Virus record (IMG/VR): IMGVR_UViG_2865671049_000004
Location: 14,759 to 78,758 of that record
Reading direction: 5' to 3' (one strand)
DNA: 64,000 nt
From: a virus
Lineage: Duplodnaviria > Caudoviricetes
In this document: one piece after another, positions 1 to 56,545 of the stretch
How positions within the stretch are numbered: position 1 is the first letter of the stretch
Layout of the letters: every line of letters begins with the position of its first letter
The notes under the pieces: model-generated
Told to the model about the DNA's origin: nothing
Seen by the model: only the letters and a program-made list of their open reading frames with translations
Database searches by the model: none
Translations under genes and position numbers: made by a program

Positions 1-1
1 C

Positions 2-316
2 TACGCCGTCCGCGAGGTCCCCTTCCGGAACGCCACCGACCTCGGCCGCACCCCGTGCCTCGTCTGCGCGGTCCCCCCGGCCACCGAGTGGACCGTCACC
101 CCGGACAATCTCGGCGAGCTGCTGGAGATCGTCGACCCGTCGAAGGTCCACTACGCCCCCGCCGGGCCCGGCCGCTACGTCAGCGTCGAGGCCGACGGCC
201 TGACCGTCATGGCGCACAAGGGCCTGGCCCGCACCTGGGCCCGGTTCGGCGACACGATCCGCCGTGAGCGTGGCGGCCGCTACACCGTCCAGCACGCCAC
301 CGCCCTGGAGGGCTGA
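2..316 (+). CDS. Hypothetical phage protein (5' truncated by window edge)
   Basis: Open frame YAVREVPF...QHATALEG* with high GC3; includes CLVC. Confidence 0.7.
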   Translation, partial: YAVREVPFRNATDLGRTPCLVCAVPPATEWTVTPDNLGELLEIVDPSKVHYAPAGPGRYVSVEADGLTVMAHKGLARTWARFGDTIRRERGGRYTVQHATALEG

Positions 317-321
317 CCGTC

Positions 322-501
322 ATGACCACCCCGCAGCCCGAGTTGACCCCCGCCGAGTGGGACGAGCGTGAACGCCGTCTCGACGCCGACATCAACGACG
401 CCCGCAAGGCCCTCAACGCTGCCCGCAACCACTTCGACCAACTCTGCGAGGAGCGCCGCGAGATGCGCTACCAGCGGATCGAGACCGCCCTGGAGGGCTG
501 A
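322..501 (+). CDS. Small coiled-coil hypothetical protein (59 aa)
   Basis: MTTPQPEL...IETALEG*, GGAGG upstream, TGATG coupling to next gene; below the ORF-track cutoff. Confidence 0.75.
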   Translation: MTTPQPELTPAEWDERERRLDADINDARKALNAARNHFDQLCEERREMRYQRIETALEG

Positions 502-713
502 TGACCACCCCGCCGACCATCGAAGACGCCGTCCTCGGCCTGCTCGACGCCCTCGACGAATCGGATATCGACCGGCCCGCCCGCCAGGCCCTCACCGCAG
601 TCCTCGACGCCCTCCACGGGGCGGACACCGCCACCGTGCACCGAGCCGTGGAGCACGCCAAGACCGTCCTGCGCGAGCACCCCTTCATCGACGCCGCCGA
701 CCTGGAGAACTGA
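501..713 (+). CDS. Hypothetical protein
   Basis: ORF track 70 aa, coupled start, high GC3. Confidence 0.75.
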   Translation: MTTPPTIEDAVLGLLDALDESDIDRPARQALTAVLDALHGADTATVHRAVEHAKTVLREHPFIDAADLEN

Positions 714-714
714 C

Positions 715-1257
715 GTGACCACCCAGTCCGCGCTCACCGACGTGCAGCTGCGCGAAGCCGTCTGCACCGCGATCGTCGATGACGCCCTCAAGCCCCGCGC
801 CGAGCGCCTCGGCCTCGTCGACGCGATGCTCGCGGTCGTCTGGCCCCAACTCGACGCCGCCCGCCGGTCCGCCCGGGCCAGCGAGGAGAGCGCCACCATC
901 CTCCAGCGGCAGATCGACGCCCAGGCTGCCGAGCTGGACGCGATGACCGACCTCCGCCAGCGCCTGGCGACGGCCGAGGCCACGATTGAGCGGATGGAGC
1001 GCACCAACCGCATGGTCAACGGCGGTGCCCGCGACGCCCGCGAGCGCGCTGAGCGGGCCGAGGCCGAGCTGGACGCCGCCCGCGCCGAGCTCGCCACCGT
1101 CCGCGAGCAGCTGGCCGAGGCGACGATGACGCCCCGCGAGCGCGCCAACCGCCGCGTCCGGGCCCTCGTCAACGCCGGCGACTACGAAGGCGCCATGGCC
1201 GCCGCTGAAGCCTTCGAGGCCAGCGAGGCGCACGCCGCTACCAACCCGCAGCTGTGA
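715..1257 (+). CDS. Coiled-coil hypothetical protein
   Basis: 180 aa, heptad-rich Ala/Glu/Arg sequence. Confidence 0.75.
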   Translation: MTTQSALTDVQLREAVCTAIVDDALKPRAERLGLVDAMLAVVWPQLDAARRSARASEESATILQRQIDAQAAELDAMTDLRQRLATAEATIERMERTNRMVNGGARDARERAERAEAELDAARAELATVREQLAEATMTPRERANRRVRALVNAGDYEGAMAAAEAFEASEAHAATNPQL

Positions 1258-1290
1258 CCGCCCGTACCGCCACCTGACCGGAGGACCACC

Positions 1291-1638
1291 GTGCGCCGGA
1301 CCGCCGCCGACGACATCGACCCCGTCGCCATCGACCGCGTCATCAACAACCACCAGCCCCTCCCCGACCTCACCCCCGCCGAGAAGCGCCACGCCGCCGC
1401 CATCCTCCGCAAGGCCGGCATGACGTACCTCGCCATCGCCGCCCGCCTCCGCGCCCCCAAGGGCACCGTCTACGACTGGCTCCGCACCGCCCCGCCCCAG
1501 CCGATCCGGCACATCCCCTGCCCGTCCCGCGCCGCCTACCACCGGCACTTGGCGGCCGGCGAGGACTGCCCGCCCTGCCGGAGCGCGAACGCTGCCGCAG
1601 ACCGCCGCTACCGCCACACCGGCACCACCGCCGCCTGA
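1291..1638 (+). CDS. HTH DNA-binding protein with C-terminal Cys/His motif
   Basis: GMTYLAIAARLRAPKGTVYDWL HTH; CPSRAAYHRH...CPPCRSANA; GGAGG RBS. Confidence 0.65.
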   Translation: MRRTAADDIDPVAIDRVINNHQPLPDLTPAEKRHAAAILRKAGMTYLAIAARLRAPKGTVYDWLRTAPPQPIRHIPCPSRAAYHRHLAAGEDCPPCRSANAAADRRYRHTGTTAA

Positions 1639-1647
1639 CCCGCCCCC
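1628..1647 (+). repeat. 20-bp direct repeat, left copy (CCGCCGCCTGACCCGCCCCC)
   Basis: Identical to 2921-2940. Confidence 0.9.
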
Positions 1648-1666
1648 TACCGACCGGAGGACCACC

Positions 1667-2173
1667 GTGCACCGTGCCGCACCCATCGCCCTCGCCGCCT
1701 ACATCGCCACCATCCCCACCGCCAACTGGGCCGTGCAGCACTACGGCATGGTCCCCGTCGGCCTCGGCTACCTCGCCCCCGCCGGCGTCTACCTCGTCGG
1801 CGCCGCCCTCGTCCTTCGCGACCTCGCCCGCGAGAGCGCCGGACGCTGGCCCGTCGCCGCCGCCATCACCGTCGGAGCCGCCCTCTCCTGGTGGCTCGCC
1901 ACCCCCGCCCTCGCCCTCGCCAGCTGCGCGGCGTTCGCCCTCTCCGAAGCCCTCGACATGGCCGTCTACGAGCCGCTCCGCCGACGCGGCCTCCTGGTGG
2001 CGATGGCCGCCTCCAACGCGGTCGGCCTGGCCGTCGACAGCCTGCTGTTCCTGTGGCTCGCCTTCGGATCGCTGCAGTTCCTGCCCGGACAGCTCCTCGG
2101 CAAGACGTGGATGACCCTCACCGCCATCGCCACCATCTCCCTGTGGCGCCGCACCCGAACGGCCACCGCATGA
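1667..2173 (+). CDS. VUT/YhhQ-family queuosine-precursor (preQ0/preQ1) transporter-like membrane protein
   Basis: Multiple TM helices; ANW, LVLRD, SEALD..VY, SNAVG..VDSLLFLWLAF, GQLLGK motifs typical of the family. Confidence 0.75.
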   Translation: MHRAAPIALAAYIATIPTANWAVQHYGMVPVGLGYLAPAGVYLVGAALVLRDLARESAGRWPVAAAITVGAALSWWLATPALALASCAAFALSEALDMAVYEPLRRRGLLVAMAASNAVGLAVDSLLFLWLAFGSLQFLPGQLLGKTWMTLTAIATISLWRRTRTATA

Positions 2174-2931
2174 AGTTCTACCTCGGCACCCACATGCCCA
2201 ACTGGCTCGCCACCGCCGGCGTCCCCCTCTTCATCTCCCGCAACCGCCTCAAAACCCGCCGCACCTTCCCCCGCGCCATCGCCCCCTGGGCCCTCGACTC
2301 CGGCGGCTTCACCGAACTCATGCAGCACGGCCGGTGGACGATCACCCCCGAGCAGTACGTCACTGAAGTCCGCCGCTACCAGGACGCCATCGGCCAGCTC
2401 GACTGGGCCGCCCCCATGGACTGGATGTGCGAACCGTGGGTCATCGAAGGCGGCCAACACGGCCCCCTCACCTTCACCGGAACCGGCCTCACCGTCGCCG
2501 AACACCAGCGCCGCACCGTCGACAACCTGATCGAACTGCGGGCCCTCGCACCAGACCTGCCGTTCATCCCCGTCCTTCAAGGCTGGACCCTCGCCGACTA
2601 CGAGCACTGTGCGCAGCTATACGCGGACGCCGGCATCGACCTCGCCGCCGAGCCCGTTGTCGGCCTCGGCTCCGTCTGCCGACGCCAAGCCACCACGGAA
2701 ATCGGCGACATCGTCACCCTGTTCACCAGCCGCGGCCTGCGCCTACACGGCTTCGGCGTGAAAACCCGCGGGCTCGCCGACTACGGCGACGACCTCGGGT
2801 CTGCCGACTCGATGGCCTGGTCGCTGGCCGCCCGCCGCTCCGCCCCGCTGGCCGGCCACACGCACAAGAACTGCGCGAACTGCCCCGACTGGGCCCTCGC
2901 CTGGCGCCGGCGGATCCTCGCCGCCGCCTGA
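2170..2931 (+). CDS. Queuine tRNA-ribosyltransferase-like (TGT/DpdA-like) base-exchange protein
   Basis: LDSGGF, PVLQG, GLGS, LHGFG, SADSMAWS motifs; ATGA overlap with the transporter gene. Confidence 0.75.
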   Translation: MKFYLGTHMPNWLATAGVPLFISRNRLKTRRTFPRAIAPWALDSGGFTELMQHGRWTITPEQYVTEVRRYQDAIGQLDWAAPMDWMCEPWVIEGGQHGPLTFTGTGLTVAEHQRRTVDNLIELRALAPDLPFIPVLQGWTLADYEHCAQLYADAGIDLAAEPVVGLGSVCRRQATTEIGDIVTLFTSRGLRLHGFGVKTRGLADYGDDLGSADSMAWSLAARRSAPLAGHTHKNCANCPDWALAWRRRILAAA

Positions 2932-2940
2932 CCCGCCCCC
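2921..2940 (+). repeat. 20-bp direct repeat, right copy
   Basis: Identical to 1628-1647. Confidence 0.9.
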
Positions 2941-2990
2941 GGCCGGGCGGCCACCACCGCCCGGCCCCACCGACACCCCAGGAGAACCCG

Positions 2991-3335
2991 ATGTCCACCG
3001 CACTCACCCCCGCCGACCTCGTCCGCGACGCCGAGGACAGCCTTACGGCCGCCCGCTTCGCCGAGACCCTCCTCGCCAAGTACCCCGACCTGCCCATCGC
3101 CCGGATGCACGCCGTCGGCGTCGACGGCGAGGAGCAGGTCGGCCCCCTGCTGGAGATCCAGGTCGGCGACGACCCCGAGGCCGTCGCCAAGTGGGCGGCC
3201 GAGGTCGGCGTCAGCGTCGAGCAGGGCCCGTTCCTCAGCCTCACCCAGCACCGCGCGACCACCGTCGTCGACGGCGTCACGGTCATGGTCACCGCGTACG
3301 AGGAGCACGAGGACGAGGACGACGAGCAGTACTGA
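2991..3335 (+). CDS. Hypothetical protein
   Basis: AGGAGA RBS, MSTALTP...EDEDDEQY*. Confidence 0.75.
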   Translation: MSTALTPADLVRDAEDSLTAARFAETLLAKYPDLPIARMHAVGVDGEEQVGPLLEIQVGDDPEAVAKWAAEVGVSVEQGPFLSLTQHRATTVVDGVTVMVTAYEEHEDEDDEQY

Positions 3336-3386
3336 CCGCCTGCCGCCGCACCCCGGCGGCCGACCCCACCCCCGAAGGAGAGCACC

Positions 3387-3827
3387 GTGACCGAGAACCC
3401 GATCCTCGACTACCTCAACACCCTGCCGCCCGTCGCCGTCGCCCCGTTCGTCCTCCGCCGCACCGAAGACGTCACCGGCGTCTCCGGTACCGGCATCGTC
3501 GCCGACGGCGCCCTCTTCCCCGCTGCTGGCCAGAACAAGGCTGTCGTCCGCTGGCGCGGCGAGCGCGGATCCACCGTCGTCTGGGACCGCATTCAGCACG
3601 TCAAGGAGATCCACGGCCACGACGGCCGCACGACTGTCGAGCTGATCCCCGTCGGCGAGTTGATCGCCGCGCTCAAGGCCGTCGTCAGCCTTCCGTCCGC
3701 ACCCGTCTACTCCGACCACCCCGGGCACATCGCCACCGTCACCGGCTACAACACCGCACTCAGCGACGTTCGCACGGCGATCATCCTCGCGATCGAGGCC
3801 CTGCACGACCACGACGAGGCCCTGTGA
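3387..3827 (+). CDS. Hypothetical phage protein
   Basis: 146 aa; FVLRRTEDVTGVSGTGIVADG motif resembling actinophage early proteins. Confidence 0.7.
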   Translation: MTENPILDYLNTLPPVAVAPFVLRRTEDVTGVSGTGIVADGALFPAAGQNKAVVRWRGERGSTVVWDRIQHVKEIHGHDGRTTVELIPVGELIAALKAVVSLPSAPVYSDHPGHIATVTGYNTALSDVRTAIILAIEALHDHDEAL

Positions 3828-3883
3828 TCGAACCGCCCGCGCCCGACGACCAGCCCATCCCCTGCTGAAGGAGCACCCACCCC

Positions 3884-4039
3884 ATGCCCGTCTTCATCCT
3901 CGGCCTGCTGCTCGGCGGCGTATCCGGCGTCGGCACCTACATCCTCACCGCTGACGGCTCGCTGTCCGCCCTCGTGGCCGCCGCCGTCGCTGTCTGCTGC
4001 TGGCTCGGCATCGCCGCCGTCCTGTTCATCGACGACTGA
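3884..4039 (+). CDS. Small two-TM membrane protein (51 aa)
   Basis: MPVFILGLLLGG...WLGIAAVLFIDD*, AAGGAG RBS. Confidence 0.7.
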   Translation: MPVFILGLLLGGVSGVGTYILTADGSLSALVAAAVAVCCWLGIAAVLFIDD

Positions 4040-4119
4040 CCGCCACCGCCCGGGCCGGCTGCCCCCGCGACAGCCAGCCCGGCCCCACCTCCTAACCACC
4101 TCCTGACCGAGGAGCCACC

Positions 4120-4773
4120 GTGCCCGACCAGACCCCCGAGCCCATCGTTCCCGCCTCGATCGTCGACCTGTGGAACCGCTTCGGCTGGCCCGACGAGGAC
4201 ACGCTCGCCGCGATGGCCACGCCCGTTGACCCCCTGCTGACCAAGGAGCCCGCCGTGCCGGAGCCGACCGACCCGTTCGCTGCCACCCAAGCGCCGCTCG
4301 ACGTCATCCACGCCGCCGCCACAACCCTCGCCACCGCCGACCACCTGACGCTCGACCGCGACGGCGTTCACGCCCTGACCGTCCTGCTGCGCGTCACCGC
4401 ATGGCAGGCGGAGTCCAACCCCTTCGCAGCCGTGGAAGCCCTCGCCGTCGCCCGTGCCGTGCTCGGCGGGTGCCGAATGAGCGCCGGCGCCAGCGTCCCC
4501 GACTGGCTCGTCGACTACTTCACGCGGCGAGAGGCCGGCCGGGCCCAAGCCGTCGCCACTGTCCTCACTGGCCTGACCGAGCGGGAGCTGCTGCTCGTCA
4601 TGGAAGCGGCCGTCATGGGCTGGGTACAGGGCCAGCGGCATCACGACCTTCCGGTCCCCGGGAACCGGAAGATCCTGACCTCGGTCGTGGACGCCTGCCT
4701 CAGCTTCGCGGACATCTATCCGACGATCAGCGGCTACGTCGAAGAAGCCGAGGACGACGAGGCCGCCGAGTGA
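4120..4773 (+). CDS. Hypothetical protein, probably an in-frame fusion of 2-3 small genes
   Basis: Internal RBS+GTG at 4255; ATG at 4477 within an ATGA-overlap-like junction. Confidence 0.6.
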   Translation: MPDQTPEPIVPASIVDLWNRFGWPDEDTLAAMATPVDPLLTKEPAVPEPTDPFAATQAPLDVIHAAATTLATADHLTLDRDGVHALTVLLRVTAWQAESNPFAAVEALAVARAVLGGCRMSAGASVPDWLVDYFTRREAGRAQAVATVLTGLTERELLLVMEAAVMGWVQGQRHHDLPVPGNRKILTSVVDACLSFADIYPTISGYVEEAEDDEAAE

Positions 4774-4997
4774 CCGGGCCCGAGCTGGCCGGCCTGCTGG
4801 TCGTCCTTACCGCCATCACCGCCGCCGTCCTCGGCACCCTCGGTTGGGACCTGCGGCGCACCATCCGCTCCGCCGAGACCACCACCGAGACCGCCCTCGC
4901 CGCCCGATGCGCCGCCGCCGCCGAACAGGCCGAGCTGCAGCTCATGGCCGACGCCATCAGATCCGGCCTCATCTACCCCGGAGAGGAAACCCAGTGA
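4770..4997 (+). CDS. Small membrane-anchored hypothetical protein
   Basis: N-terminal TM helix, GTGA coupling. Confidence 0.7.
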   Translation: MTGPELAGLLVVLTAITAAVLGTLGWDLRRTIRSAETTTETALAARCAAAAEQAELQLMADAIRSGLIYPGEETQ

Positions 4998-5281
4998 CCG
5001 CCTTTCCCGCAGTCCAAGGCCACTGCCCCGCCTGCTCCCGCAGCACGCTGATCCTCGGCGCCGGCGGGTACGTCACCTGCGCCCACCTCGACTGCCCCAG
5101 CCCGACCGCGGCCAGCGACCTGCTGGACCGGCCGGGTGCAGCCGACATCGTGCACACCCTCCGCAACGCCCACGTAGGCCCGAACGAGGCTGATGGCATC
5201 GAAGCCGCGATCGACATTCTCACCGGCGAACGCCCCGCCCAAAGGCCCAAGCGCAACCGGCCGACCAGGAGGAAGCCGTGA
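4994..5281 (+). CDS. Zn-finger hypothetical protein (DUF6085-like)
   Basis: VQGHCPAC...LGAGGYVTCAHLDCPSP. Confidence 0.6.
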   Translation: MTAFPAVQGHCPACSRSTLILGAGGYVTCAHLDCPSPTAASDLLDRPGAADIVHTLRNAHVGPNEADGIEAAIDILTGERPAQRPKRNRPTRRKP

Positions 5282-5556
5282 CCCGCGCCGAAGTCCTCGC
5301 CAAGGCCATCGAGTGGGCCGCCAAGGCCGAAGACGCCGAAGCCACCCGGAACCACCACATCCGCGAGGCAGACCGCAACGCCCGCATCAAGTACTGCGAG
5401 CACCACGTCGCCACCCACCGCGCCAGAGCCGACGATGCCGCCGCAGAACGGCAGACCTCCATCGACATGGCCGCCATGTGGACCGCCATCGCTGCTGCCC
5501 TGCCCGGACCACAGCCCTACATCGCGTTCACCACCCCCGAGGAGCCGACCCCGTGA
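5278..5556 (+). CDS. Hypothetical protein
   Basis: 92 aa, coupled start and stop. Confidence 0.7.
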   Translation: MTRAEVLAKAIEWAAKAEDAEATRNHHIREADRNARIKYCEHHVATHRARADDAAAERQTSIDMAAMWTAIAAALPGPQPYIAFTTPEEPTP

Positions 5557-5954
5557 GCTCTCAGCCCCGCTCCAGCCACCGCATCAGCGGCCCCGCCCTG
5601 TGGCACATCCTCGACATCCAGCGGCAGGCCCGGCGCCTCTCCTGGCGAGGCGTCGCCCGCGAGACCGGCACCGCCACCGGCTCCCTGTTCACCCGCCTCC
5701 AGCGCGACGACATCAGCCTCCACGGTGACAGCCTCGTCAGCCTGCTCGTCTGGCTCGGCCTCGACGAGCAGATCCGCCCGCTCATCGTGGCTACGGGCAG
5801 CACCACCGCGCCTGGCCCCGAGACCGAGCCCCCTGGGATAGCTGTGCTCGTCCACATTCTGCGGAACAGCAAGGTCTCGCATCTGCAGCGCGCGTTCCGC
5901 GAGTGCGACATGAAGATCACATTCGACGCCACCCCGGAGGAGCCGACCTCGTGA
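5553..5954 (+). CDS. XRE-like HTH domain protein
   Basis: LSWRGVARETG...LFTRL...LVSLLVWLG. Confidence 0.55.
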   Translation: MSSQPRSSHRISGPALWHILDIQRQARRLSWRGVARETGTATGSLFTRLQRDDISLHGDSLVSLLVWLGLDEQIRPLIVATGSTTAPGPETEPPGIAVLVHILRNSKVSHLQRAFRECDMKITFDATPEEPTS

Positions 5955-6370
5955 GCCTCCTCACCGCCCGTCAGCTGCAGATCCTCACCCGGGTGGCCGA
6001 GGGTGACAGCAACCCGCAGATCGCGAAGCGCTACGACCTGGCCCTCGGTACCGTCGCCACCCACCTCGTGAAGATCCGCGCGCGGCTCGGCGCCCGGGAC
6101 CGAGCGCACGCCGTTCACCTCGCGCACGAGGCTGGCCTGCTCGGACGCAAGCCCCGCCGCCCCAGCGCCCAGCAGGTGAGCATCCTCGCTCTCGCTGGCG
6201 ACGGGCTCTCGAACGCCCAGATCGCCGAGGGGCTGGGCCTGCCCGTCCACGTGGTCAAGAACTCCCTCCACAAGACGTTCCTGCTGCTCGGCGTTGCTCG
6301 CCGGGCGGATGCCATCGACGCCGCCCGACGGGCCGGCCTCATCCCCACCCCCCTGAGGAGCGCCGCATGA
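5951..6370 (+). CDS. Regulator with two tandem LuxR-type HTH domains
   Basis: LTARQLQIL..VAEG.SNPQIA..HL.KIRARLGARDRAHAV and a second PSAQQVSIL..G.SNAQIA..LHKTF..LGV.RRADA. Confidence 0.75.
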   Translation: MSLLTARQLQILTRVAEGDSNPQIAKRYDLALGTVATHLVKIRARLGARDRAHAVHLAHEAGLLGRKPRRPSAQQVSILALAGDGLSNAQIAEGLGLPVHVVKNSLHKTFLLLGVARRADAIDAARRAGLIPTPLRSAA

Positions 6371-7056
6371 CCGAGCCCACCACCGACCTCGCCGCCCTGC
6401 TCGGCCAACGCGTCACCGTCACCGGCCCCAACGGCAGCACGTGGGCCGGCACCCTCACAGCCCTCGCCGACCAGCCGACTGCCGTCATCGACCGACCCGA
6501 CGGTGGACGCGTCTCCCTGCCGCAGAGCTACACGTACACCGTGGTGTCCCGCCCGGAGGACGAACTCCGCGAGCAGCTGGCCGCCGCCGAAGCCCGCATC
6601 GCCGCCGCCCGGGCGCTGCACTATGCCGAGGGTTCCCAGTGGGGCGGCCTGCAGTGCTACCTGTGCCGCGACCCGTACCCGTGCGCCACGGTGACCGCGC
6701 TCGACACCTCGACCGCCGCCTTCGCCCTGCCTGTCGACGTCCTCGGCGCGCTCGTTCGAATCGCCCGCCACGTTTCCGCTGGCCGTGACGCTGTCGGCGC
6801 CCAGGAGCCGTACCCGGACGTGGCCGCCCGGTGGGCGCTGGGCCGGCTCGACGACGTCGGGCTCCTTGCTCGGCTCGACGGTCACACCTGCGCGGATGGT
6901 GAGCCGTGTCCGGCTCATGACGAGATCGCCGACACCCCGGCCGCACCGTGCGACCACCGGAACCCGAAGCGCCTCGCCTGTCGGCCCCTCGACCTCGCCG
7001 TCGTCTGCGCCTGCGGCACCGAGGTCACAGCCGGTCTCCGACCGCACCGGCGCTGA
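6367..7056 (+). CDS. Mosaic hypothetical protein
   Basis: 229 aa with several small Cys-containing modules (CYLC..YPCAT). Confidence 0.65.
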   Translation: MTEPTTDLAALLGQRVTVTGPNGSTWAGTLTALADQPTAVIDRPDGGRVSLPQSYTYTVVSRPEDELREQLAAAEARIAAARALHYAEGSQWGGLQCYLCRDPYPCATVTALDTSTAAFALPVDVLGALVRIARHVSAGRDAVGAQEPYPDVAARWALGRLDDVGLLARLDGHTCADGEPCPAHDEIADTPAAPCDHRNPKRLACRPLDLAVVCACGTEVTAGLRPHRR

Positions 7057-7176
7057 CCTGGCAGTAACGATGTGGCAGCCTCGCGTGACGGCCCGAATCG
7101 TTCCTGCCGACCGGGCCATTTTCCGTGACCTTTTCGGGCTCTGGCCGGGCATTTACCAGCTCTGTACAACGGACTC

Positions 7177-7374
7177 ATGACCAACCCCGAGTACTTCCCG
7201 ATCAGCGCCGCGCACCTGCGGAACTTCTTCGACGCCGACGGCAAGCCCCTTGCCGGGCGGAGCAAGTGTCCGACGTGCGGCAAGACCGTCTTGTTCCAGC
7301 TGGACTTCTCGAACGGGCAGGTGATGCGGTTCCGCAGTCCCTGCCACGCCTTTGAGGTGCCGACGCCCAGTTGA
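7177..7374 (+). CDS. Small Zn-ribbon hypothetical protein
   Basis: KCPTCGK; preceded by a 120-bp promoter-like gap. Confidence 0.55.
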   Translation: MTNPEYFPISAAHLRNFFDADGKPLAGRSKCPTCGKTVLFQLDFSNGQVMRFRSPCHAFEVPTPS

Positions 7375-7465
7375 TCGTTGGCGTTCCTCAACGCGCCCGA
7401 CCGCTTTGGTCGGGCGCTTTCGCGTGTCAGGTCCGGTGGAACGGTGGACTCGGTACGCTCTGCCG

Positions 7466-7825
7466 GTGACTGAGACACCTGCTTCGTTCGCTGCCCTGCG
7501 TGCTGCCACCGACGCCAATGGCGGTGTTCATCGGACGACCGTTCGGACGCTTCGCAACCTGGTTGGCCAGTCCCGGATGAGTCGGGGCGTAGCGGAGAAG
7601 ATCGAGCTGAACCTCAACGCGGTGGGGTTGCGGTACCTGCCGCCGCAGATTCCTGAGGGGCAGGACGACGTGGTGGTGCTGCACACTGACGCCGAGGGGC
7701 TGGCTTCGGTGATCAGCCTGGTGCGGCGGATGGCTGCTGCGCCCGCGGATGATCGTCGGTCGGTGATGACTGCTTCGCAGTTGAGCTGGGAGTTGCGGCG
7801 GTTGCAGGGTGGGGCCGGCTCGTAG
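7466..7825 (+). CDS. Hypothetical protein (moron-like)
   Basis: MTETPASF...LQGGAGS*; start chosen within ORF 7352-7825; followed by a strong hairpin. Confidence 0.55.
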   Translation: MTETPASFAALRAATDANGGVHRTTVRTLRNLVGQSRMSRGVAEKIELNLNAVGLRYLPPQIPEGQDDVVVLHTDAEGLASVISLVRRMAAAPADDRRSVMTASQLSWELRRLQGGAGS

Positions 7826-7830
7826 GTGTG

Positions 7831-7867
7831 CGTGTGCCCCGCCGGCTTGGGTCCGGCGGGGCACACG
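7831..7867. terminator. Perfect 15-bp-stem hairpin
   Basis: cgtgtgccccgccgg-cttgggt-ccggcggggcacacg. Confidence 0.75.
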
Positions 7868-8117
7868 TGGTCGTCTGCGGGCGGCCTGTTCCGGGTGATC
7901 GCGCCAAGGGGGCCGATGACGTGATCAGGCGGGGTTGCGGCAGGTCATGCCGGGCCTGTCCGGGGAGACGACGCCCTCGGCCTGGGAGGCCGCCGAGGGC
8001 TGCGGCCGGCGGGCACTGACCGCGGTCTCACGGTAGACCTGCCGGGCCGGTTCCGGAAGTCTTGACTCCGCTCTCTTCGGGGCCCATGCTGACCGTCCCT
8101 CACGAAGGAGGTCACCG

Positions 8118-8414
8118 GTGCCGGAGATGTATGTCGGAGACCCGAAGGACTGGCCGCCGTGCACGCGGTGCGGTCGGGAACTGCTGTACTCCCTGCATGT
8201 GTCGCTGGGCGACGGCGTCCAGTTGGAGCTCTGCCAGTTGTGCGACGTGGAGGTTCCGTATGCCGCGGAGCTGGTGATGATGCTGGCGACCGGTTTGATC
8301 GCTGCGGAGCGGGTGCAGCCGGCGTTGACGGTGTGGATGCACGGGGCGATGGCCGCCCGTGGCTGGTACCACCATCCTCATGGCGAGCGTGTGGACGAGG
8401 GCCCGGTGTCATAG
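8118..8414 (+). CDS. DUF6300-like Zn-binding protein
   Basis: PPCTRCG...LELCQLCD; GAAGGAGG RBS. Confidence 0.6.
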   Translation: MPEMYVGDPKDWPPCTRCGRELLYSLHVSLGDGVQLELCQLCDVEVPYAAELVMMLATGLIAAERVQPALTVWMHGAMAARGWYHHPHGERVDEGPVS

Positions 8415-8582
8415 GCCGGGCAGCGTGTCCTGGTCGATGTCGTGGCGGGCGGTGTGGCCGATGTGGTCTCAGCATTCGGGGCCCAGGCGGAGCAGCCGGG
8501 ATTCCGGGTCGTGGAGTGCCCGTTTGCAGCGGCGGCAGGTGACGCGGACGGTGAGCTGCCCCTGCGCCGGGAATAGATCCAC
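8409..8582 (-). pseudogene. DUF6011-like Zn-finger gene with a premature TGA
   Basis: VTCRRCKRALHDPESRLLRLGPEC-TGA-DHIGHTARHDIDQDTLPGL*; in-frame stop at 8469-8471. Confidence 0.6.
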
Positions 8583-8693
8583 TGGATGACTGCCCATCAA
8601 ACATCGCAATATCGAATAGAATTGGAGGGCAAGCGAGCCCCCGAATGGTCACACATTCGAGGGCTCTGCGATCACCTATATCGGAGGTGTCGC

Positions 8694-9242
8694 ATGAGTG
8701 AGCGTACCTGCTCCATGCGCGGATGTACGAACAAGCACTGCGCTCGCGGTCTGTGCCAGCAGCACTACAGGCAGGCGCGAGCCAAAGGATTCCCTCCTGA
8801 ACAGCTGGCGCTTCCTGCACCCAATGTGCACTCTATAAGCAATCCTGACGTGGAAGCCCGAACCGGGGACTGCTCGACCTGTGGTCCTGGAGTTCGCATC
8901 CGAGTGGGTAACGGCCAGCGAGGCAACGAGTGCATTACCAAGCGGTACCAAGATAACCGTCGCATGAACGGCGTACGGGATCGGACGACCTACCGCAGGA
9001 AATCGCACCTGCGAGCCAAGTACGGGCTAGAACCGCATGAGTACACCGCCATGGTCGAGGAGCAGCGGGGCCTGTGCCTGATCTGCGAGACCCCTCAGGA
9101 AAAGCTTGTCGTGGATCACGACCATCAGACGGGGAAGGTGCGAGGGCTCCTATGCAATTCGTGCAATGCCGCGCTGGGATTCCTTCGCGATAGACCAGAA
9201 GTTGCTTTGGCTGCAGCGCGATACCTTCTGGATCGAAGTTGA
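8694..9242 (+). CDS. Recombination endonuclease VII-family (HNH-like) endonuclease
   Basis: KYGL..YTAMVEEQRGLCLIC...VDHDHQTGKVRGLLCNSCN..LG; lower GC, opposite orientation to neighbours. Confidence 0.85.
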   Translation: MSERTCSMRGCTNKHCARGLCQQHYRQARAKGFPPEQLALPAPNVHSISNPDVEARTGDCSTCGPGVRIRVGNGQRGNECITKRYQDNRRMNGVRDRTTYRRKSHLRAKYGLEPHEYTAMVEEQRGLCLICETPQEKLVVDHDHQTGKVRGLLCNSCNAALGFLRDRPEVALAAARYLLDRS

Positions 9243-9251
9243 CTTGCAGGG

Positions 9252-9497
9252 TCACAGTCTCGGGGCCTTCTCGGTGAGGGCGTAGAAGCGGCGTGCCGGC
9301 CTGCTCGGGTGCGGGCCGGTTTCCTCCGTGACGCTGAGCCAGCCGGCCTCGGAGAGGCGGCGGAGCAGCGGGTACAGGGTGCCGGTGCCGAGGCCGGTGT
9401 CCGTGGCGATCTGCAGGCCGTAGGCCGGCTCGTCCCGCCGGGCAAGGTCGGCGAGGACGATGCGCACCGGGGTGGTGAGCCGCGGGCGGCCCGTCAT
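9252..9497 (-). CDS. PadR-like winged-helix regulator
   Basis: YGLQIATDTGLGTGTLYPLLRRLSEAGWL...RRFYALT. Confidence 0.8.
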   Translation of the reverse strand: MTGRPRLTTPVRIVLADLARRDEPAYGLQIATDTGLGTGTLYPLLRRLSEAGWLSVTEETGPHPSRPARRFYALTEKAPRL

Positions 9498-9694
9498 GAG
9501 GACTGCAGGCGGGCGAGTTCGGCTTCGAGCTGAGCGATACGGCGGGCTGCGTCGGCCGGGGAGAGGACTTCCTGCAGCGGGGTGCCGGGCGGCAGGCAGT
9601 CGGGGTGCCAGAGGCGGCCGTCGGCACCCGCCTTCCAGAGGCGCAGGGGGCGGTCGCAGTTGGCGGCGCAGGTACGGGCGGGAAGGGCGCTCAC
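9494..9694 (-). CDS. Hypothetical protein
   Basis: MSALPARTC...LARLQSS*; coupled. Confidence 0.65.
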   Translation of the reverse strand: MSALPARTCAANCDRPLRLWKAGADGRLWHPDCLPPGTPLQEVLSPADAARRIAQLEAELARLQSS

Positions 9695-10131
9695 TTGGCT
9701 ACCTCCGGGTCGATGATGTCGGCGGTCATGCCGACGCATCGGTTCCAGCGTGATGCGTCGTAGGAGCGGCCGGGGGCGTGCATCTCGCGGCGTTGCTGCT
9801 CGGCCAGTTGGTGGGCGAAGGCGAGTAGCGCGGAGGCGAGCGCGGACTGGTGGTGGTCGGTGAAGTACGCCTGCCAGCCCGGGCCGATCTCCTGCCGCGC
9901 GTGGTCGTAGGTGACCTTGTAGGAGGCCCAGGCTGCTTCGAACGCGCCGGTGTCGTCGGCGCGCATCTCCTGGATTCGTTCGAGGTGCTGGGCTTCGGTG
10001 AGGCGCCGGCATTCTGCGCAGGGGACGCCTGCGGGGTGGCCGATGGAGCGGCAGGGGCGTGTGCCGTCGGGCATCTGCTCGTGCTGGTCCGGGTGGTGGC
10101 CGCAGCCGATGCACATGGTCTCGCTGCTCAC
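9691..10131 (-). CDS. Hypothetical protein (Cys/His-rich N-terminus)
   Basis: 146 aa ORF, coupled. Confidence 0.7.
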   Translation of the reverse strand: MSSETMCIGCGHHPDQHEQMPDGTRPCRSIGHPAGVPCAECRRLTEAQHLERIQEMRADDTGAFEAAWASYKVTYDHARQEIGPGWQAYFTDHHQSALASALLAFAHQLAEQQRREMHAPGRSYDASRWNRCVGMTADIIDPEVAK

Positions 10132-10550
10132 TGCTGCTCCTCGATGGTGGGCCAGTCCCGTTCGGCGCGGGCGAGCGCGTCGTCCGGGATCGGCCCGTAG
10201 GTGACGTCGAGGTGGTCGAGGAGCTCGCCGAGCTTCTCGTTGTCGAGTGTGATGGCCACGAGGTCGACGCGCTTCGGGTCGTTCCGGTCGCTGACCAGTG
10301 CTTTCCCCTCCCCCGGGTATTCGCGGCCAGCGGCGAGGGCATCACGTGCCTTCTGTGCTTCGGCGATGAACTTGTCGAGGGCGTACAGGGCGTTCTGCTG
10401 GGTGCTGGGGTCGCTGTACTCGGTGTCGGCGTCAATACGCCAGCCGTCGCACTGGTTGGGCAGGCTGACCTTCCAGCCGGGCTTGTTGTCTTCGTCGAGC
10501 CAGGGTTCGTCGACGTATTCGACGGTGAAGCCAAAGACAGGCTTGCTCAT
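10128..10550 (-). CDS. Hypothetical protein
   Basis: MSKPVFGF...IEEQQ*; AAGGAGA RBS. Confidence 0.7.
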   Translation of the reverse strand: MSKPVFGFTVEYVDEPWLDEDNKPGWKVSLPNQCDGWRIDADTEYSDPSTQQNALYALDKFIAEAQKARDALAAGREYPGEGKALVSDRNDPKRVDLVAITLDNEKLGELLDHLDVTYGPIPDDALARAERDWPTIEEQQ

Positions 10551-10783
10551 CCGCTGATCTCCTTCTCGCAGGTACCGCAGAGGGGGTGGTCGCCGGGTGT
10601 GGCGCCGTAGTTGCCGCAACGCTGGCACTCGGTGTTGGCGTGGGCACTGTCGACGGCTTTGGCGAGGCGGACGACGGTGGCGGCGAGTTCCTCTTCGTCG
10701 TGCTCGCGGAAGAGGTGGTCTTCGAGGTCGGTGTCGTCGAGGAGCTCGTCGGCGTCGCAGTCGGTGACGGGGCAGGGCTTCAC
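10547..10783 (-). CDS. Small Zn-finger hypothetical protein
   Basis: CPVTDC..HLFREH; CQRC..CGTC. Confidence 0.65.
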   Translation of the reverse strand: MKPCPVTDCDADELLDDTDLEDHLFREHDEEELAATVVRLAKAVDSAHANTECQRCGNYGATPGDHPLCGTCEKEISG

Positions 10784-11145
10784 TGGGTGGCCTCCAGGTC
10801 GATGGTGAGTTGGCCGGCGGCGGCGAGTGCGGCTGCGCGGGTGCGGGCTGCGGTCTCACGGTGGTGCGGACCGTCGTACCGAAGGTGGCAGAGCTGGCAC
10901 GCCGCAAGGAGGTTCTCGGGTCGAACGTCCCGCGGCTCGTGGTTGAGGTGGGCGACGGTGAGGACGACCTTCGATCCCGTGACCGGGTTGGGCTGACCGT
11001 TGCGGGCTTGGCAGCGGCCGTCGTGGTCGAGGCCGCAGTGCCCGGTGCATTCACAGCGGCCTGCGGCGCGGTTGGTGCGGATGTCGAGGCTGATGGCCGG
11101 CCAGTTCTTCGGGTACCGGTCGCGGTTCTCGGGGCGGATGGGCAC
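10780..11145 (-). CDS. HNH endonuclease-like protein
   Basis: YPKNW...RAAGRCEC...VLTVAHLNHEPRDVRPENLLAACQLCHLRYD. Confidence 0.8.
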   Translation of the reverse strand: MPIRPENRDRYPKNWPAISLDIRTNRAAGRCECTGHCGLDHDGRCQARNGQPNPVTGSKVVLTVAHLNHEPRDVRPENLLAACQLCHLRYDGPHHRETAARTRAAALAAAGQLTIDLEATQ

Positions 11146-11159
11146 TGCTGCTCCCTCGG

Positions 11160-11432
11160 TCAGGTGGTGGGCTGGCAGCCGAGCTGGTGACAGTCCTGGT
11201 CGCCGCCGCAGGTGGGGCAGGCGTCGGCAGGTCGGCCGATGATGGCGCGGGCGAGGGTGACGGTTTCGGGGCCGGCGACACGGTGGAGATGGTCGGGGTC
11301 CCAGCCGGTCATCTGGTGCCAGGCGGTGAGCATGTCGGCGATGAGGGGGTTGAGGGAAGCGGGGAGGCTGGTGGGGCGTTCTCCGAGTTCGCGGATCGCC
11401 GCGGCGAGGGCCTCGGCGTCGGTCACGGTCAT
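11160..11432 (-). CDS. Hypothetical protein
   Basis: MTVTDAEAL...CPTCGG..CHQLGC. Confidence 0.65.
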   Translation of the reverse strand: MTVTDAEALAAAIRELGERPTSLPASLNPLIADMLTAWHQMTGWDPDHLHRVAGPETVTLARAIIGRPADACPTCGGDQDCHQLGCQPTT

Positions 11433-12226
11433 CACTCGCCTCCCGCGGACGCCGGCACCAGCACGGGCAGGGCCGGGATGGTGCTGGCCAGCCAGCCGCC
11501 GGGGGCCGTCGTGAAGTGCGGCGCGCCGGCGGTCTCCCACCAGGATCGGATCGCGGTGGTCCGGACGGCCTCACTTGTGCGCTTGTCGACGTACTCGACG
11601 TCCTTCTCCCCCGTTCGGCGGACGGTGACTCGGCCGCGCTTGCAGCCGTCGGGGTAGTCGCTCCAGTTGATGCGGTGGTCGGCCCAGAGGAGTTCCTGCA
11701 TTTGTCCGGTGCTGACGCCGTCGAGCTGGCGGTGGGAGTAGTGGGCCTGCGCGGCCATGGAGATGGAGTTGCGGACGGCGTCGCGCTGGCGCCACAAGAA
11801 GTAGTTGGCGACCTCGACGGGGTCGGCGACGGTGAAGACGCGGGCGTCGAACAGGGCACGGCCGCCCGGCCGGCGGGTGTTGAGTTCGGCGGTGGCGATG
11901 GACGCGGCGATGCTGGTCTGCTTGGCGATGACGCCGCCGAACCACGGCTGGGTGCTGGGGGTGGCGAAGTCGGTGACGAGCACGCTGATCTCGTCGGACT
12001 GGGTGTAGGCGAGGACGGCGCCGGTGATCTCGTTGCAGAGGGCTTCGGCGACGTGGTTCATGTCTGCCATGAAGGCCTCGTCGTAGGGCTTGGTGGCGCC
12101 GCGGAGGTAGGAGTGGAAGGCGCGGCCGTCGACGCGGAGGAGGGTGTAGGTGCGGCGGGGCAGGAGAGCACGGTAGGTGGCTTCGTGGCGCTTCATGCGG
12201 TCGCCGAGGGCGGTCTTGTCGCTCAC
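11432..12226 (-). CDS. tRNA(His) guanylyltransferase Thg1-like protein (3'-5' nucleotidyltransferase)
   Basis: RMKRHE; LRVDGRAFH; YTQSDEISV; WFGG..K..S; FDAR; NYFLWRQRDAVRNS. Confidence 0.9.
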   Translation of the reverse strand: MSDKTALGDRMKRHEATYRALLPRRTYTLLRVDGRAFHSYLRGATKPYDEAFMADMNHVAEALCNEITGAVLAYTQSDEISVLVTDFATPSTQPWFGGVIAKQTSIAASIATAELNTRRPGGRALFDARVFTVADPVEVANYFLWRQRDAVRNSISMAAQAHYSHRQLDGVSTGQMQELLWADHRINWSDYPDGCKRGRVTVRRTGEKDVEYVDKRTSEAVRTTAIRSWWETAGAPHFTTAPGGWLASTIPALPVLVPASAGGE

Positions 12227-12462
12227 TTGGGCTCCTTGCGGGTGCGGGCGTTGAGGATGGCGGTTGCGGCGCGGTTCTGGCCGAAGCGGTACCAGTGCTG
12301 GTCGTCGCCGGCGGAGGTGGCGGGCGGGAGGTTGTGGATGATGGCGGCGGCTTCGGCGAGCACCTGGTCGCGGTAGTTGTCGAGCAGCACCGCAGCCTGC
12401 TCGGGCAGCTTGAAGGAGACGTGGAACGCGCGCTCGATCCGCTCGCGCGGGGACCGCTTCAT
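12223..12462 (-). CDS. Hypothetical protein
   Basis: MKRSPRERIE...TRKEPK*. Confidence 0.65.
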   Translation of the reverse strand: MKRSPRERIERAFHVSFKLPEQAAVLLDNYRDQVLAEAAAIIHNLPPATSAGDDQHWYRFGQNRAATAILNARTRKEPK

Positions 12463-12719
12463 CGGTGCTTCTCCTCGGTGAGCGGGCCGTAGGTGGCTTC
12501 GACGCTGGCGCGGGTGGCGGGCCGCATGTTGCTGGCGAACGGGACGAGGATGGCCTCGCCGTGCCACGTCCAGGGAACGAGTGCCCAGGTCTCGCTGTCT
12601 CGGTCTACGAACCACGGGTAGCGGTGCAGGGTGTCGTCGCACAGCTCGTCTTCGAGGGTCCAGGTGGGATGGAATCCGCCCTCGATCGAGTCGTTCTCGG
12701 GGATTCCGACGAGGGCCAT
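12459..12719 (-). CDS. Hypothetical phage protein (phiSA1p31-like)
   Basis: WFVDRDSETW...VEATYGPL pattern. Confidence 0.55.
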   Translation of the reverse strand: MALVGIPENDSIEGGFHPTWTLEDELCDDTLHRYPWFVDRDSETWALVPWTWHGEAILVPFASNMRPATRASVEATYGPLTEEKHR

Positions 12720-12720
12720 G

Positions 12721-13137: not shown

Positions 13138-13146
13138 GGCTGCTCC

Positions 13147-13308
13147 TTACAGGGGTCGGCCGTCGCAGTTGGCATACCCGTCGGCGGTGCGGTGGGGTTC
13201 GATGCAGTCGGCGTGGGCGTCCACCGGTGCGAGCTCCCAGCGGTTGGTGTGGTTGCTCCAGTAGTACTCGCGGCCGTCGGCGGGCGGCAGGGATCCGTCG
13301 TAGGTCAC
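13147..13308 (-). CDS. Small hypothetical protein
   Basis: MTYDGSLP...NCDGRPL*; GTGA coupling. Confidence 0.6.
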   Translation of the reverse strand: MTYDGSLPPADGREYYWSNHTNRWELAPVDAHADCIEPHRTADGYANCDGRPL

Positions 13309-54830: not shown

Positions 54831-54839
54831 GAGACCCTC

Positions 54840-56535: not shown

Positions 56536-56545
56536 GCTGTTCTCC

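What the first reader, a model, noticed from the sequence alone, without database searches (positions are those of the whole stretch)
1667..2931. Two-gene salvage-type 7-deazaguanine module: precursor transporter coupled to a TGT/DpdA-like enzyme, with no synthesis genes
Seen: a VUT/YhhQ-like membrane gene is translationally coupled (ATGA) to a TGT-fold gene (DSGGF, PVLQG, HGFG, DSMAW); no folE/queD/queE/queC appears in the window. Established: phage DpdA-family enzymes exchange guanine in DNA for preQ0-type bases and give restriction resistance; YhhQ imports preQ0/preQ1; some Streptomyces make preQ0 en route to toyocamycin/sangivamycin. Inference: the element may scavenge a neighbour's antibiotic precursor to modify its DNA, or instead edit host tRNA.
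Basis: partly seen in the sequence, partly recalled or inferred. Interest (0 to 1): 0.75.

Follow-up and report, generated by a model that had tools for sequence, protein, structure and literature searches.

The report
Phage deazaguanine importer plus DNA-swapping enzyme
A Streptomyces prophage carries a two-gene cassette, a small membrane importer for queuosine-precursor-type bases coupled to a DNA guanine-swapping enzyme, with no genes to make the base; the same cassette recurs in many phages and suggests DNA protection that depends on a base taken from outside.

Summary
Gene A (1667-2173, 168 aa) is a short YhhQ/VUT-family membrane protein. Gene B (2170-2931, 253 aa) is a DpdA-family (PF23859, 307 bits) TGT-fold enzyme. 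They overlap by ATGA. No QueC, QueD, QueE, FolE or FolE2 was found in the whole 78.7-kb provirus record.

The pair is a recurrent, self-contained cassette. Of 81 IMG/VR loci with this short VUT, 70 have a DpdA or DpdA-like gene adjacent. In 31 of 34 PF23859 pairs the start overlaps or abuts the VUT stop. None of 50 such viral records has QueC, including 22 that are at least 90% complete.

In Streptomyces genomes the same short VUT sits either in these prophage pairs or inside chromosomal Dpd (7-deazaguanine DNA modification) islands. Bacterial TGT was not found in the 14 VUT-carrying actinomycete genomes searched.

The enzyme belongs to the "singleton DpdA" clade (54% identical to phage Orion gp20). 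Its one tested member left DNA unmodified in a host without preQ0.

Best reading (about 0.6): import-dependent 7-deazaguanine modification of phage DNA. The concept was already suggested in 2019, and the systematic coupling found here makes it testable. The scan flagged the same module in other genomes. It is a new variant of a known kind, of moderate interest.

The parts
1628..1647 (+). Left copy of a perfect 20-bp direct repeat (CCGCCGCCTGACCCGCCCCC). It covers the last codons and stop of the upstream HTH gene plus 9 nt.
1656..1661 (+). Shine-Dalgarno-like GGAGGA, 5 nt before the GTG start of gene A. The 16-nt junction ACCGGAGGACCACCGT (1653-1668) also occurs at 1277-1292, before the upstream gene.
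   Evidence: family D8.
1667..2173 (+). Gene A: a 168-aa short VUT/YhhQ-family (COG1738, PF02592) six-helix membrane protein, the predicted importer of a 7-deazaguanine base.
2170..2173 (+). ATGA overlap: the start of gene B lies inside the stop of gene A (translational coupling). No separate SD is evident before gene B.
   Evidence: The arrangement is conserved: 31 of 34 related pairs overlap or lie within 2 nt, and 16 have the same 4-nt overlap.
2170..2931 (+). Gene B: a 253-aa DpdA-family (PF23859) TGT-fold transglycosylase of the Orion-type 'singleton' clade. D43, D84 and D213 are invariant.
2921..2940 (+). Right copy of the 20-bp direct repeat. It covers the last codons and stop of gene B plus 9 nt, so the two copies bracket the cassette.

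Best explanation
This is a self-contained, mobile two-gene cassette in the early/replication operon of a temperate Streptomyces siphophage.

Gene A is a trimmed (168 aa, six-helix, ECF-S-component-like) member of the YhhQ/QPTR family of queuosine-precursor transporters. It is made first from its own ribosome-binding site. Gene B, translated by coupling to gene A, is a minimal TGT-fold DNA guanine transglycosylase of the DpdA family.

During phage replication the importer is proposed to bring a free 7-deazaguanine base, most likely preQ0, into a host that usually cannot make it. DpdA is proposed to exchange guanines in phage DNA for that base, giving protection from restriction. The protection would exist only when the base is available outside the cell.

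Shown here: the family memberships, the fold, the conserved catalytic-type residues, the coupling, the recurrence of the pair, and the absence of synthesis genes. Inferred: the direction of transport, the identity of the base, DNA rather than RNA as the target, and the anti-restriction benefit.
For: 1. Family and fold.
- Searches cover DpdA. Searches cover the VUT.

2. Catalytic-type residues.
- D43 (in DSGGF, with F47 four residues on), D84 and D213 (in DSMAW) are invariant in 53 homologues.
- Their spacings (41 and 129) are like those of the three essential Asp of Salmonella DpdA, D95/F99, D130 and D256 (35 and 126; PMC10164549).

3. Conserved pairing in viral contigs.
- Of 81 IMG/VR loci with the short VUT, 37 have a PF23859 DpdA adjacent (34 immediately downstream on the same strand).
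- 19 have a StevieRay-gp54-type 'DpdA-like' gene, and 14 have a third family related to that one (hhalign 95%, E 2e-8).
- 2 have QueC nearby.
- Named phages of Arthrobacter, Mycobacterium, Rhodococcus, Sinorhizobium, Pectobacterium and Pseudanabaena show the same neighbourhood.

4. Coupling is conserved in 31 of 34 pairs.

5. No synthesis genes.
- None were found in this provirus.
- QueC is absent from 0 of 50 related viral records, including 0 of 22 that are at least 90% complete.

6. The VUT subfamily tracks DNA modification, not tRNA.
- In 400 Streptomyces species it occurs in 16 genomes. Six copies sit next to PF23859 DpdA. In seven more a QueC lies on the same contig: three of these are 2.2-2.4 kb from the VUT and four are about 23 kb away. 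An eighth has QueC on another contig.
- In Kitasatospora, Nonomuraea and Thermopolyspora the VUT closes a queC-queE-queD-folE2 operon beside bacterial dpdA and DndB-like genes.
- PF01702 TGT was over cut-off in 0 of the 14 VUT-carrying actinomycete genomes searched.

7. Hosts usually cannot make the base.
- QueC was found in 41 of 400 Streptomyces species, and in only 1 of 6 unbiased hosts of the pair.

8. The literature allows it.
- E. coli YhhQ imports preQ0 and preQ1 (PMC5372724).
- Uptake was proposed for DpdA-only phages (PMC6884629).
Against: - No member of this DpdA clade has been shown to modify DNA. Orion (gp20, 54% identical) had fewer than 6 deazaguanines per 10^6 nt (PMC6884629). 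This is expected if the base is missing, but it is equally compatible with a different function.
- Bacterial DpdA needs the DpdB ATPase (PMC10164549). No DndB/ParB-like partner is present here.
- The VUT is below both NCBIfam equivalog cut-offs (33.7 vs 50.95, and 26 vs 252). Its substrate therefore cannot be read from sequence.
- In phage CAjan, deleting yhhQ changed nothing (PMC7544227), although that phage makes its own preQ0.
- Most PF23859 DpdAs in Streptomyces have no adjacent VUT (16 of 19).
- This prophage's own host genome (GCA_001905045.1) could not be searched.
Confidence: 0.6

Rival explanations
1. The mechanism is the same but the base is different. The singleton DpdA clade has diverged in function, and with its dedicated importer it inserts some other exogenous purine analogue (preQ1, CDG, 7-deazaguanine, queuine or an uncharacterised base), producing a modification not looked for so far.
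For: - Hutinet et al. note that singleton DpdAs form their own network clusters and may have diverged (PMC6884629).
- The enzyme is not BLAST-detectable against the dPreQ0-proven Rosebush DpdA.
- The VUT is below the equivalog cut-offs.
- YhhQ subgroups differ in preQ0, preQ1 or queuine preference (PMC5372724, PMC11570991).
Against: - The same short VUT closes queC-queE-queD-folE2 operons in Dpd islands. The pathway product there is preQ0, and this is the simplest pointer to its substrate.
- One viral locus (L070) combines the VUT with a full preQ0 pathway.
Confidence: 0.15
2. The target is tRNA rather than DNA. The enzyme acts as a minimal tRNA-guanine transglycosylase and installs an imported precursor into tRNAs of a host that has no TGT of its own, to tune translation of phage genes.
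For: - The hosts searched lack PF01702 TGT.
- GenBank annotators call relatives 'queuine tRNA-ribosyltransferase'.
- The same phage also carries a Thg1-like tRNA-His guanylyltransferase.
Against: - The protein is a bare 253-aa barrel. It lacks the extra tRNA-binding parts of the 360-580-aa TGT chains it aligns to.
- It scores on the DpdA model and not on PF01702 at E up to 1.
- Its importer subfamily is found in DNA-modification islands.
- No tRNA genes are in the window.
Confidence: 0.1
3. The cassette is counter-defence by mimicry, or lysogenic conversion. It exists to mark phage or lysogen DNA with the same dPreQ0/dADG mark that host Dpd restriction-modification islands use as 'self', using host-made preQ0. 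In that case the importer is only a supplement.
For: - Four of the six Streptomyces genomes found by the pattern scan to carry the pair also carry a complete Dpd island elsewhere: DndB-like, bacterial DpdA, DndB-like, then queC, queE, queD, folE2.
- Dpd islands restrict unmodified DNA (PMC12235509, citing Thiaville et al.).
Against: - The enrichment was not reproduced in an unbiased sample. Only 1 of 6 pair-carrying hosts among 400 Streptomyces species has QueC, against a 10% background.
- PF23859 DpdA overall shows no association with QueC: 2 of 19, with 2.3 expected.
- The cassette sits in the lytic early operon, not beside immunity or integration genes.
Confidence: 0.1
4. The cassette is an inert passenger. 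It is a mosaic 'moron' with no current function in this host and is retained by drift.
For: - Orion-type DpdA gave no modification in the laboratory (PMC6884629).
- The cassette is bracketed by a 20-bp repeat and has no conserved neighbours.
- Some genomic copies look split, for example G036 and G170.
Against: - Both ORFs are intact, with coding-type GC3 of 0.93 for gene A.
- The catalytic-type residues are invariant in 53 homologues.
- Gene order and the overlap are conserved across phages with 52-70% G+C. This indicates purifying selection on the pair.
Confidence: 0.05

Closest known systems
Singleton ('DpdA-only') phage DpdAs, e.g. Mycobacterium phage Orion gp20 / PG1 (cluster B1) and cluster K phages (Hutinet et al. 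2019, PMC6884629)
   Same: It belongs to the same Pfam family (PF23859). It is 54% identical over the full length to Orion gp20, and about 400 mycobacteriophages carry relatives at 52-56% identity. No preQ0 synthesis genes are in the phage.
   Different: Here the enzyme is translationally coupled to a dedicated importer. The Orion locus shows no adjacent VUT gene, and no cluster-B1 phage appeared in the VUT tblastn. Orion DNA was unmodified on a host lacking preQ0.
E. coli YhhQ / QPTR (COG1738), the preQ0/preQ1 importer (Zallot et al. 2017, PMC5372724)
   Same: It is homologous over residues 13-134 (hhalign 96.6%, 29% identity). Both are six-helix small membrane proteins, and both are associated with 7-deazaguanine genes.
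   Different: It is 168 aa against 221 aa. It lacks a loop of about 20 residues and about 20 C-terminal residues. It is below the TIGR00697 and PRK11212 equivalog cut-offs. It belongs to a distinct short subfamily of 160-190 aa with 1316 representative clusters. No transport has been tested.
Phage preQ0 clusters with DpdA1, e.g. Escherichia phage CAjan (folE-queD-queE-queC-yhhQ-dpdA) and Mycobacterium phage Rosebush
   Same: Both are phage-borne and combine a DpdA with, in CAjan, a YhhQ homologue. The product there is dPreQ0, which gives restriction resistance (PMC6884629, PMC7544227).
   Different: Those phages synthesise preQ0 themselves, and CAjan yhhQ is dispensable. Their DpdA is a different clade: Rosebush gp2 is not BLAST-similar (E 0.015). 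One IMG/VR locus (L070) shows this full type with the short VUT.
Bacterial Dpd restriction-modification islands (dpdA-K), including the Streptomyces and Kitasatospora islands seen here
   Same: They use a TGT-fold DpdA and preQ0. The same short VUT subfamily is embedded in some islands. YhhQ is reported in about 9% of dpd islands (PMC12235509).
   Different: The islands carry DndB-like DpdB and further dpd genes, and often the preQ0 pathway. None of these is in the provirus. The island DpdA is a 406-aa protein of another clade.
StevieRay gp54 / Aoka gp40 / ReqiPine5 gp03 'DpdA-like' proteins with adjacent VUT
   Same: The architecture is the same (a short VUT followed, often with overlap, by a roughly 210-aa enzyme) and so is the genomic position among early genes.
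   Different: The enzyme is a different family with no Pfam match. It is only weakly alignable to PF23859 (hhalign 15.6%, E 0.0017, over the H...DS block). Its TGT-like nature rests on motifs and on the depositors' annotation.

Membership tests
DpdA family (Pfam PF23859, 'DeoxyPurine in DNA protein A') | Scores above the curated gathering threshold of the family model over most of its length | tested here: met
   306.8 bits against a cut-off of 27, covering residues 2-252 and model positions 4-252 of 291. The provirus-wide search gave 307.6 bits.
DpdA family (Pfam PF23859) | TGT-type TIM-barrel fold | tested here: met
DpdA family (Pfam PF23859) | Three invariant active-site aspartates (general acid/base in DSGGF-type motif, base-recognition Asp, nucleophile Asp), as in Salmonella DpdA D95/D130/D256 | tested here: met
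   D43 (DSGGF, with F47), D84 and D213 (DSMAW) are invariant in 9 and in 53 homologues. The correspondence to D95/F99, D130 and D256 is by motif and spacing, not by residue-level superposition.
DpdA family (Pfam PF23859) | Structural zinc site | tested here: inconclusive
   This protein has H230, H232, C235 and C238 after the nucleophile Asp. The cysteines are replaced in some homologues (L009, L012, phiLM21 p025).
DpdA family (Pfam PF23859) | Exchanges guanine in DNA for a 7-deazaguanine base | not testable with these tools
   This needs biochemistry or LC-MS. The only tested clade member (Orion) showed no modification (PMC6884629).
VUT / QPTR (YhhQ, COG1738, Pfam PF02592) | Scores above the Pfam gathering threshold | tested here: met
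   42.5 bits against 27.2, but only residues 78-152 match, on model positions 64-131 of 152.
VUT / QPTR (YhhQ, COG1738, Pfam PF02592) | Meets the NCBIfam equivalog cut-offs for 'queuosine precursor transporter' (TIGR00697) and the preQ0/preQ1 transporter (PRK11212) | tested here: not met
   33.7 bits against 50.95, and 26 bits against 252. It is therefore a family member, not a demonstrated equivalog of YhhQ.
VUT / QPTR (YhhQ, COG1738, Pfam PF02592) | Homology to E. coli YhhQ across the helical core; six transmembrane helices | tested here: met
   hhalign gives 96.6% probability and E 6e-10, residues 13-134 against 21-164. AF2 shows six helices with pLDDT 95.3.
VUT / QPTR (YhhQ, COG1738, Pfam PF02592) | Imports preQ0/preQ1 | not testable with these tools
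   Only gene-context evidence is available.
Bacterial Dpd restriction-modification system | DpdB (DndB/ParB-like ATPase), DpdC and restriction genes accompany DpdA | tested here: not met
   tblastn with the Kitasatospora island's DndB-like proteins and bacterial DpdA finds nothing better than E 0.06 in the 78.7-kb record.
Phage DpdA1-type preQ0 clusters (9g, CAjan, Rosebush) | DpdA1-clade enzyme together with FolE, QueD, QueE and QueC or Gat-QueC | tested here: not met
   No que or folE genes are present. BLASTP to Rosebush gp2 gives E 0.015 over 52 residues.
tRNA-guanine transglycosylase (Pfam PF01702) | Scores on the TGT family model | tested here: not met
   PF01702 is not reported at E up to 1 for gene B. 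The similarity to TGT is structural only.

The most novel reading that the evidence does not exclude
Singleton DpdAs are conditional, environment-fed DNA modifiers. Phages of hosts that cannot make preQ0 carry their own importer and use 7-deazaguanine bases released by neighbouring producers. Roughly one Streptomyces species in ten carries a QueC-family gene; those inspected lie in Dpd islands. Anti-restriction protection would then switch on only in certain soil communities. This would explain why Orion-type phages look unmodified in pure laboratory culture. A stronger version is that the imported base is not preQ0 and yields a DNA modification not yet described.
Probability: 0.4. Interest if true: 0.7.

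Novelty: new variant of a known kind. Interest (0 to 1): 0.5.

Why it matters
About 400 sequenced mycobacteriophages and thousands of actinobacterial prophage genes encode this DpdA clade. Its function has been an acknowledged open question since 2019, because the one phage tested was unmodified.

A dedicated importer is translationally coupled to this enzyme, and to two other putative TGT-like families, in dozens of phages that never carry QueC. This gives a concrete and cheap test: feed the base and look for the modified nucleoside.

If the test is positive, it would show that a phage's DNA protection can depend on a metabolite shared in the community. It would also assign a function to a large subfamily of short VUT proteins (1316 representative clusters).

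Tried and rejected
1. Host check. The host assembly (GCA_001905045.1, contig LWLA01000034.1) is not held, so its queC/dpd status is unknown.

2. Anti-Dpd mimicry.
- 4 of 6 pair-carrying genomes from the pattern scan have a Dpd island.
- An unbiased sample of 400 Streptomyces species gave 1 of 6, against a 10% background, so the enrichment is not supported.
- PF23859 against QueC in 150 species gave an overlap of 2, with 2.3 expected.
- PF06508 also covers non-biosynthetic QueC relatives (PMC13082051), so 10% is an upper bound for preQ0 producers.

3. Sequence searches of the PDB with gene A, gene B and a 9-sequence DpdA profile found nothing meaningful. Only fold comparison linked gene B to DpdA/TGT.

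5. A profile of the StevieRay-type plus third family gave no PDB hit and only a weak hhalign link to PF23859. Their TGT nature remains unproven here.

6. I looked for a third co-travelling gene. None of the window neighbours (715-1257, 1291-1638, 2991-3335, 3387-3827, 4120-4773) accompanies the pair in 95 loci. 14 phages with the HTH-gene homologue lack the pair.

7. No sigma-70-like promoter or intrinsic terminator was found in 1-8000.

11. The 2024 MMBR review on 7-deazaguanines is not held, so prior description of the pairing there cannot be excluded.

Full report
**What is there**

The window is the right-hand 64 kb of a 78,758-bp IMG/VR provirus record. The record lies on a 540-kb contig of NCBI assembly GCA_001905045.1.

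- The G+C content is about 70%.
- The gene content is that of a temperate siphophage of a Streptomyces-like host. There is a long rightward early block with an RDF-like protein, an exonuclease, SSB, a DnaC-like loader and regulators.
- A leftward block carries DnaB and a Thg1-like enzyme.
- A rightward late block carries terminase, portal, capsid and a 1389-aa tape measure.

The finding sits in the early block. Gene A (1667-2173) starts with GTG behind GGAGGA. Gene B (2170-2931) starts with the ATG of an ATGA overlap and has no ribosome-binding site of its own.

**Gene B**

Gene B scores 306.8 bits on Pfam DpdA (PF23859) and matches phrog_1279.

- An AlphaFold model built on 53 homologues has pLDDT 95.7.
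- The best Foldseek match is the crystal structure of the DNA preQ0 insertase DpdA, 7UI4, at E 1.2e-7.
- D43 (DSGGF, with F47), D84 and D213 (DSMAW) are invariant. They match, by motif and spacing, the three essential aspartates of Salmonella DpdA (PMC10164549).
- The protein is 54% identical to Mycobacterium phage Orion gp20, and about 400 mycobacteriophages carry relatives.
- It is not detectably similar by BLASTP to the Rosebush DpdA.

It therefore belongs to the "singleton DpdA" group of Hutinet et al. 2019. Orion DNA carried no 7-deazaguanine, which the authors expected because neither the phage nor M. smegmatis makes preQ0 (PMC6884629).

**Gene A**

Gene A passes the Pfam Vut_1 threshold on its second half only. 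It fails both NCBIfam equivalog cut-offs. It matches phrog_4899 over its whole length.

- A profile of 62 diverse relatives aligns to E. coli YhhQ with 96.6% probability over residues 13-134. Gene A lacks one loop and part of the C-terminus.
- The model (pLDDT 95.3) has six helices.
- The subfamily is large, with 1316 clusters at 50% identity, most of them 160-190 aa.

**No synthesis genes**

QueC has no candidate anywhere in the record. tblastn with QueC, QueD, QueE, FolE, FolE2, bacterial DpdA and DndB-like proteins from a Kitasatospora island and from Rosebush finds nothing better than E 0.06.

**The pair is a recurrent cassette**

I analysed 81 IMG/VR loci encoding this VUT. They were the best 80 of 239, plus one from a first scan. 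I scanned them with local HMMs.

| Gene adjacent to the short VUT | Loci |
|---|---|
| PF23859 DpdA (34 directly downstream on the same strand) | 37 |
| StevieRay-gp54-type "DpdA-like" protein of about 210 aa | 19 |
| Third family of 230-250 aa, just upstream | 14 |
| QueC (one locus with a full preQ0 pathway and a Rosebush-like DpdA) | 2 |
| None of these | 9 |

- hhalign ties the third family to the StevieRay type (95%, E 2e-8), through DNGxF and DS-type motifs.
- The link of those two families to PF23859 is weak. Their TGT nature rests on motifs and on depositors' annotations.
- In 31 of 34 PF23859 pairs the enzyme's start overlaps or abuts the VUT stop.
- QueC is absent from all 50 viral records tested. 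These include 22 judged at least 90% complete, several with terminal repeats.
- Isolated phages of Arthrobacter, Mycobacterium (cluster P), Rhodococcus, Sinorhizobium, Pectobacterium and Pseudanabaena show the same neighbourhood.
- No other neighbour travels with the pair.
- In this window a perfect 20-bp repeat that includes both stop codons brackets the cassette. This fits insertion or exchange as a unit.

**Context in bacterial genomes**

Among 400 Streptomyces species representatives, the short VUT occurs in 16.

- Six copies are next to PF23859 DpdA.
- Seven have a QueC on the same contig: three are 2.2-2.4 kb from the VUT and four are about 23 kb away. An eighth has QueC on another contig.
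- Two are in other contexts.

In Kitasatospora, Nonomuraea and Thermopolyspora the VUT closes a queC-queE-queD-folE2 operon next to a 406-aa TGT-like DpdA flanked by DndB-like genes. That is a bacterial Dpd island. YhhQ in dpd islands, and COG1738 in TGT-less bacteria with DNA deazapurines, have been noted before (PMC12235509, PMC5372724).

None of the 14 VUT-carrying actinomycete genomes has a PF01702 TGT over the cut-off. This subfamily therefore tracks DNA modification, not queuosine in tRNA.

**Where would the base come from?**

QueC-family genes occur in 41 of 400 Streptomyces species. This is an upper bound for producers, because the family also includes defence proteins (PMC13082051). 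Only one of the six unbiased hosts of the pair has QueC.

An initial impression that pair-carrying hosts are enriched for Dpd islands (4 of 6) did not survive this larger sample. I therefore reject mimicry of the host Dpd mark as the main explanation. Whether this prophage's own host makes preQ0 could not be checked.

**Interpretation**

The best-supported model is an import-dependent version of phage 7-deazaguanine DNA modification. The importer supplies a base the cell lacks, and the coupled DpdA inserts it into phage DNA.

The activity, the base, the target and the benefit are all inferred. The main weakness is that no enzyme of this clade has yet been shown to act.

[quoted passage not shown] What is added here:
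- The correlation does exist for a specific short VUT subfamily.
- It is tight and translationally coupled.
- It spans three partner enzyme families.
- It is essentially exclusive of QueC.

Earlier notes of this scan flagged the same module in other genomes. I treated those only as leads.

Noticed in passing
window 11432-12226 (-): A Thg1-like tRNA-His guanylyltransferase (Pfam Thg1 at 5.7e-21 plus Thg1C; phrog_4717 at 9e-73) in a phage whose 64-kb window has no tRNA gene.
   Followed up: partly
window 3387-3827 (+): The 146-aa gene two genes downstream of DpdA carries a precomputed Pfam hit PF26761 'Acb5' and matches phrog_7499. My Pfam copy gave no hit. Homologues lie near VUT-DpdA pairs in L022, L038 and L058, but not consistently.
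   Followed up: partly
window 1277-1292 and 1653-1668; 1628-1647 and 2921-2940: Repeated gene-junction sequences. The 16-nt ACCGGAGGACCACCGT (RBS plus GTG start) precedes two successive genes. A 20-nt stop-codon-containing repeat brackets the cassette. These may be recombination points for module exchange.
   Followed up: partly
L025 (Kitasatospora, G003:C24:70000-89999) 5802-13843; also L026-L032: Actinobacterial Dpd islands have a fixed core: DndB-like, 406-aa TGT-like DpdA, DndB-like, a 254-aa protein, then divergently queC-queE-queD-folE2. The short VUT follows in Kitasatospora, Nonomuraea and Thermopolyspora but not in four Streptomyces islands.
   Followed up: yes
G086:C18, G207:C30, G210:C1, G313:C2 (Streptomyces species genomes): In four genomes the short VUT lies a near-constant 23-24 kb from QueC on the same contig. 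This suggests it marks the far end of a large Dpd island.
   Followed up: no
L067:5231-5989, L079:5303-6007, L083:4172-4858 and 11 more IMG/VR loci: A 230-250-aa protein family with no Pfam match sits immediately upstream of the short VUT in 14 viral contigs with 52-63% G+C. It carries DNGAF and ADSTN motifs reminiscent of the DSGGF and DSMAW motifs of TGT.
   Followed up: partly
P0363 (306 aa), P0292 (271 aa), P0354 (411 aa): Apparent fusions of the short VUT: with an N-terminal SAM-methyltransferase domain (P0363), with an RseA_N anti-sigma domain (P0292), or with a 240-aa unassigned N-terminus (P0354).
   Followed up: no
L018:4497-5354, L020:4657-5502; G036, G054, G169, G173: A subset of PF23859 DpdAs next to VUT carry an insertion of about 20-30 residues after the first third of the barrel, so the HMM match splits at model positions 95 and 101. 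In G036 the VUT itself is in two pieces and may be a pseudogene.
   Followed up: no
window 54092-59915 (-): A leftward block after the tail genes encodes an NAD-dependent epimerase/dehydratase and a group-1 glycosyltransferase. It is either host flank inside the 'provirus' call or phage-borne surface-sugar modification genes.
   Followed up: no
window 5951-6370 (+): A 139-aa protein made of two tandem LuxR/GerE-type HTH domains lies in the early operon.
   Followed up: no
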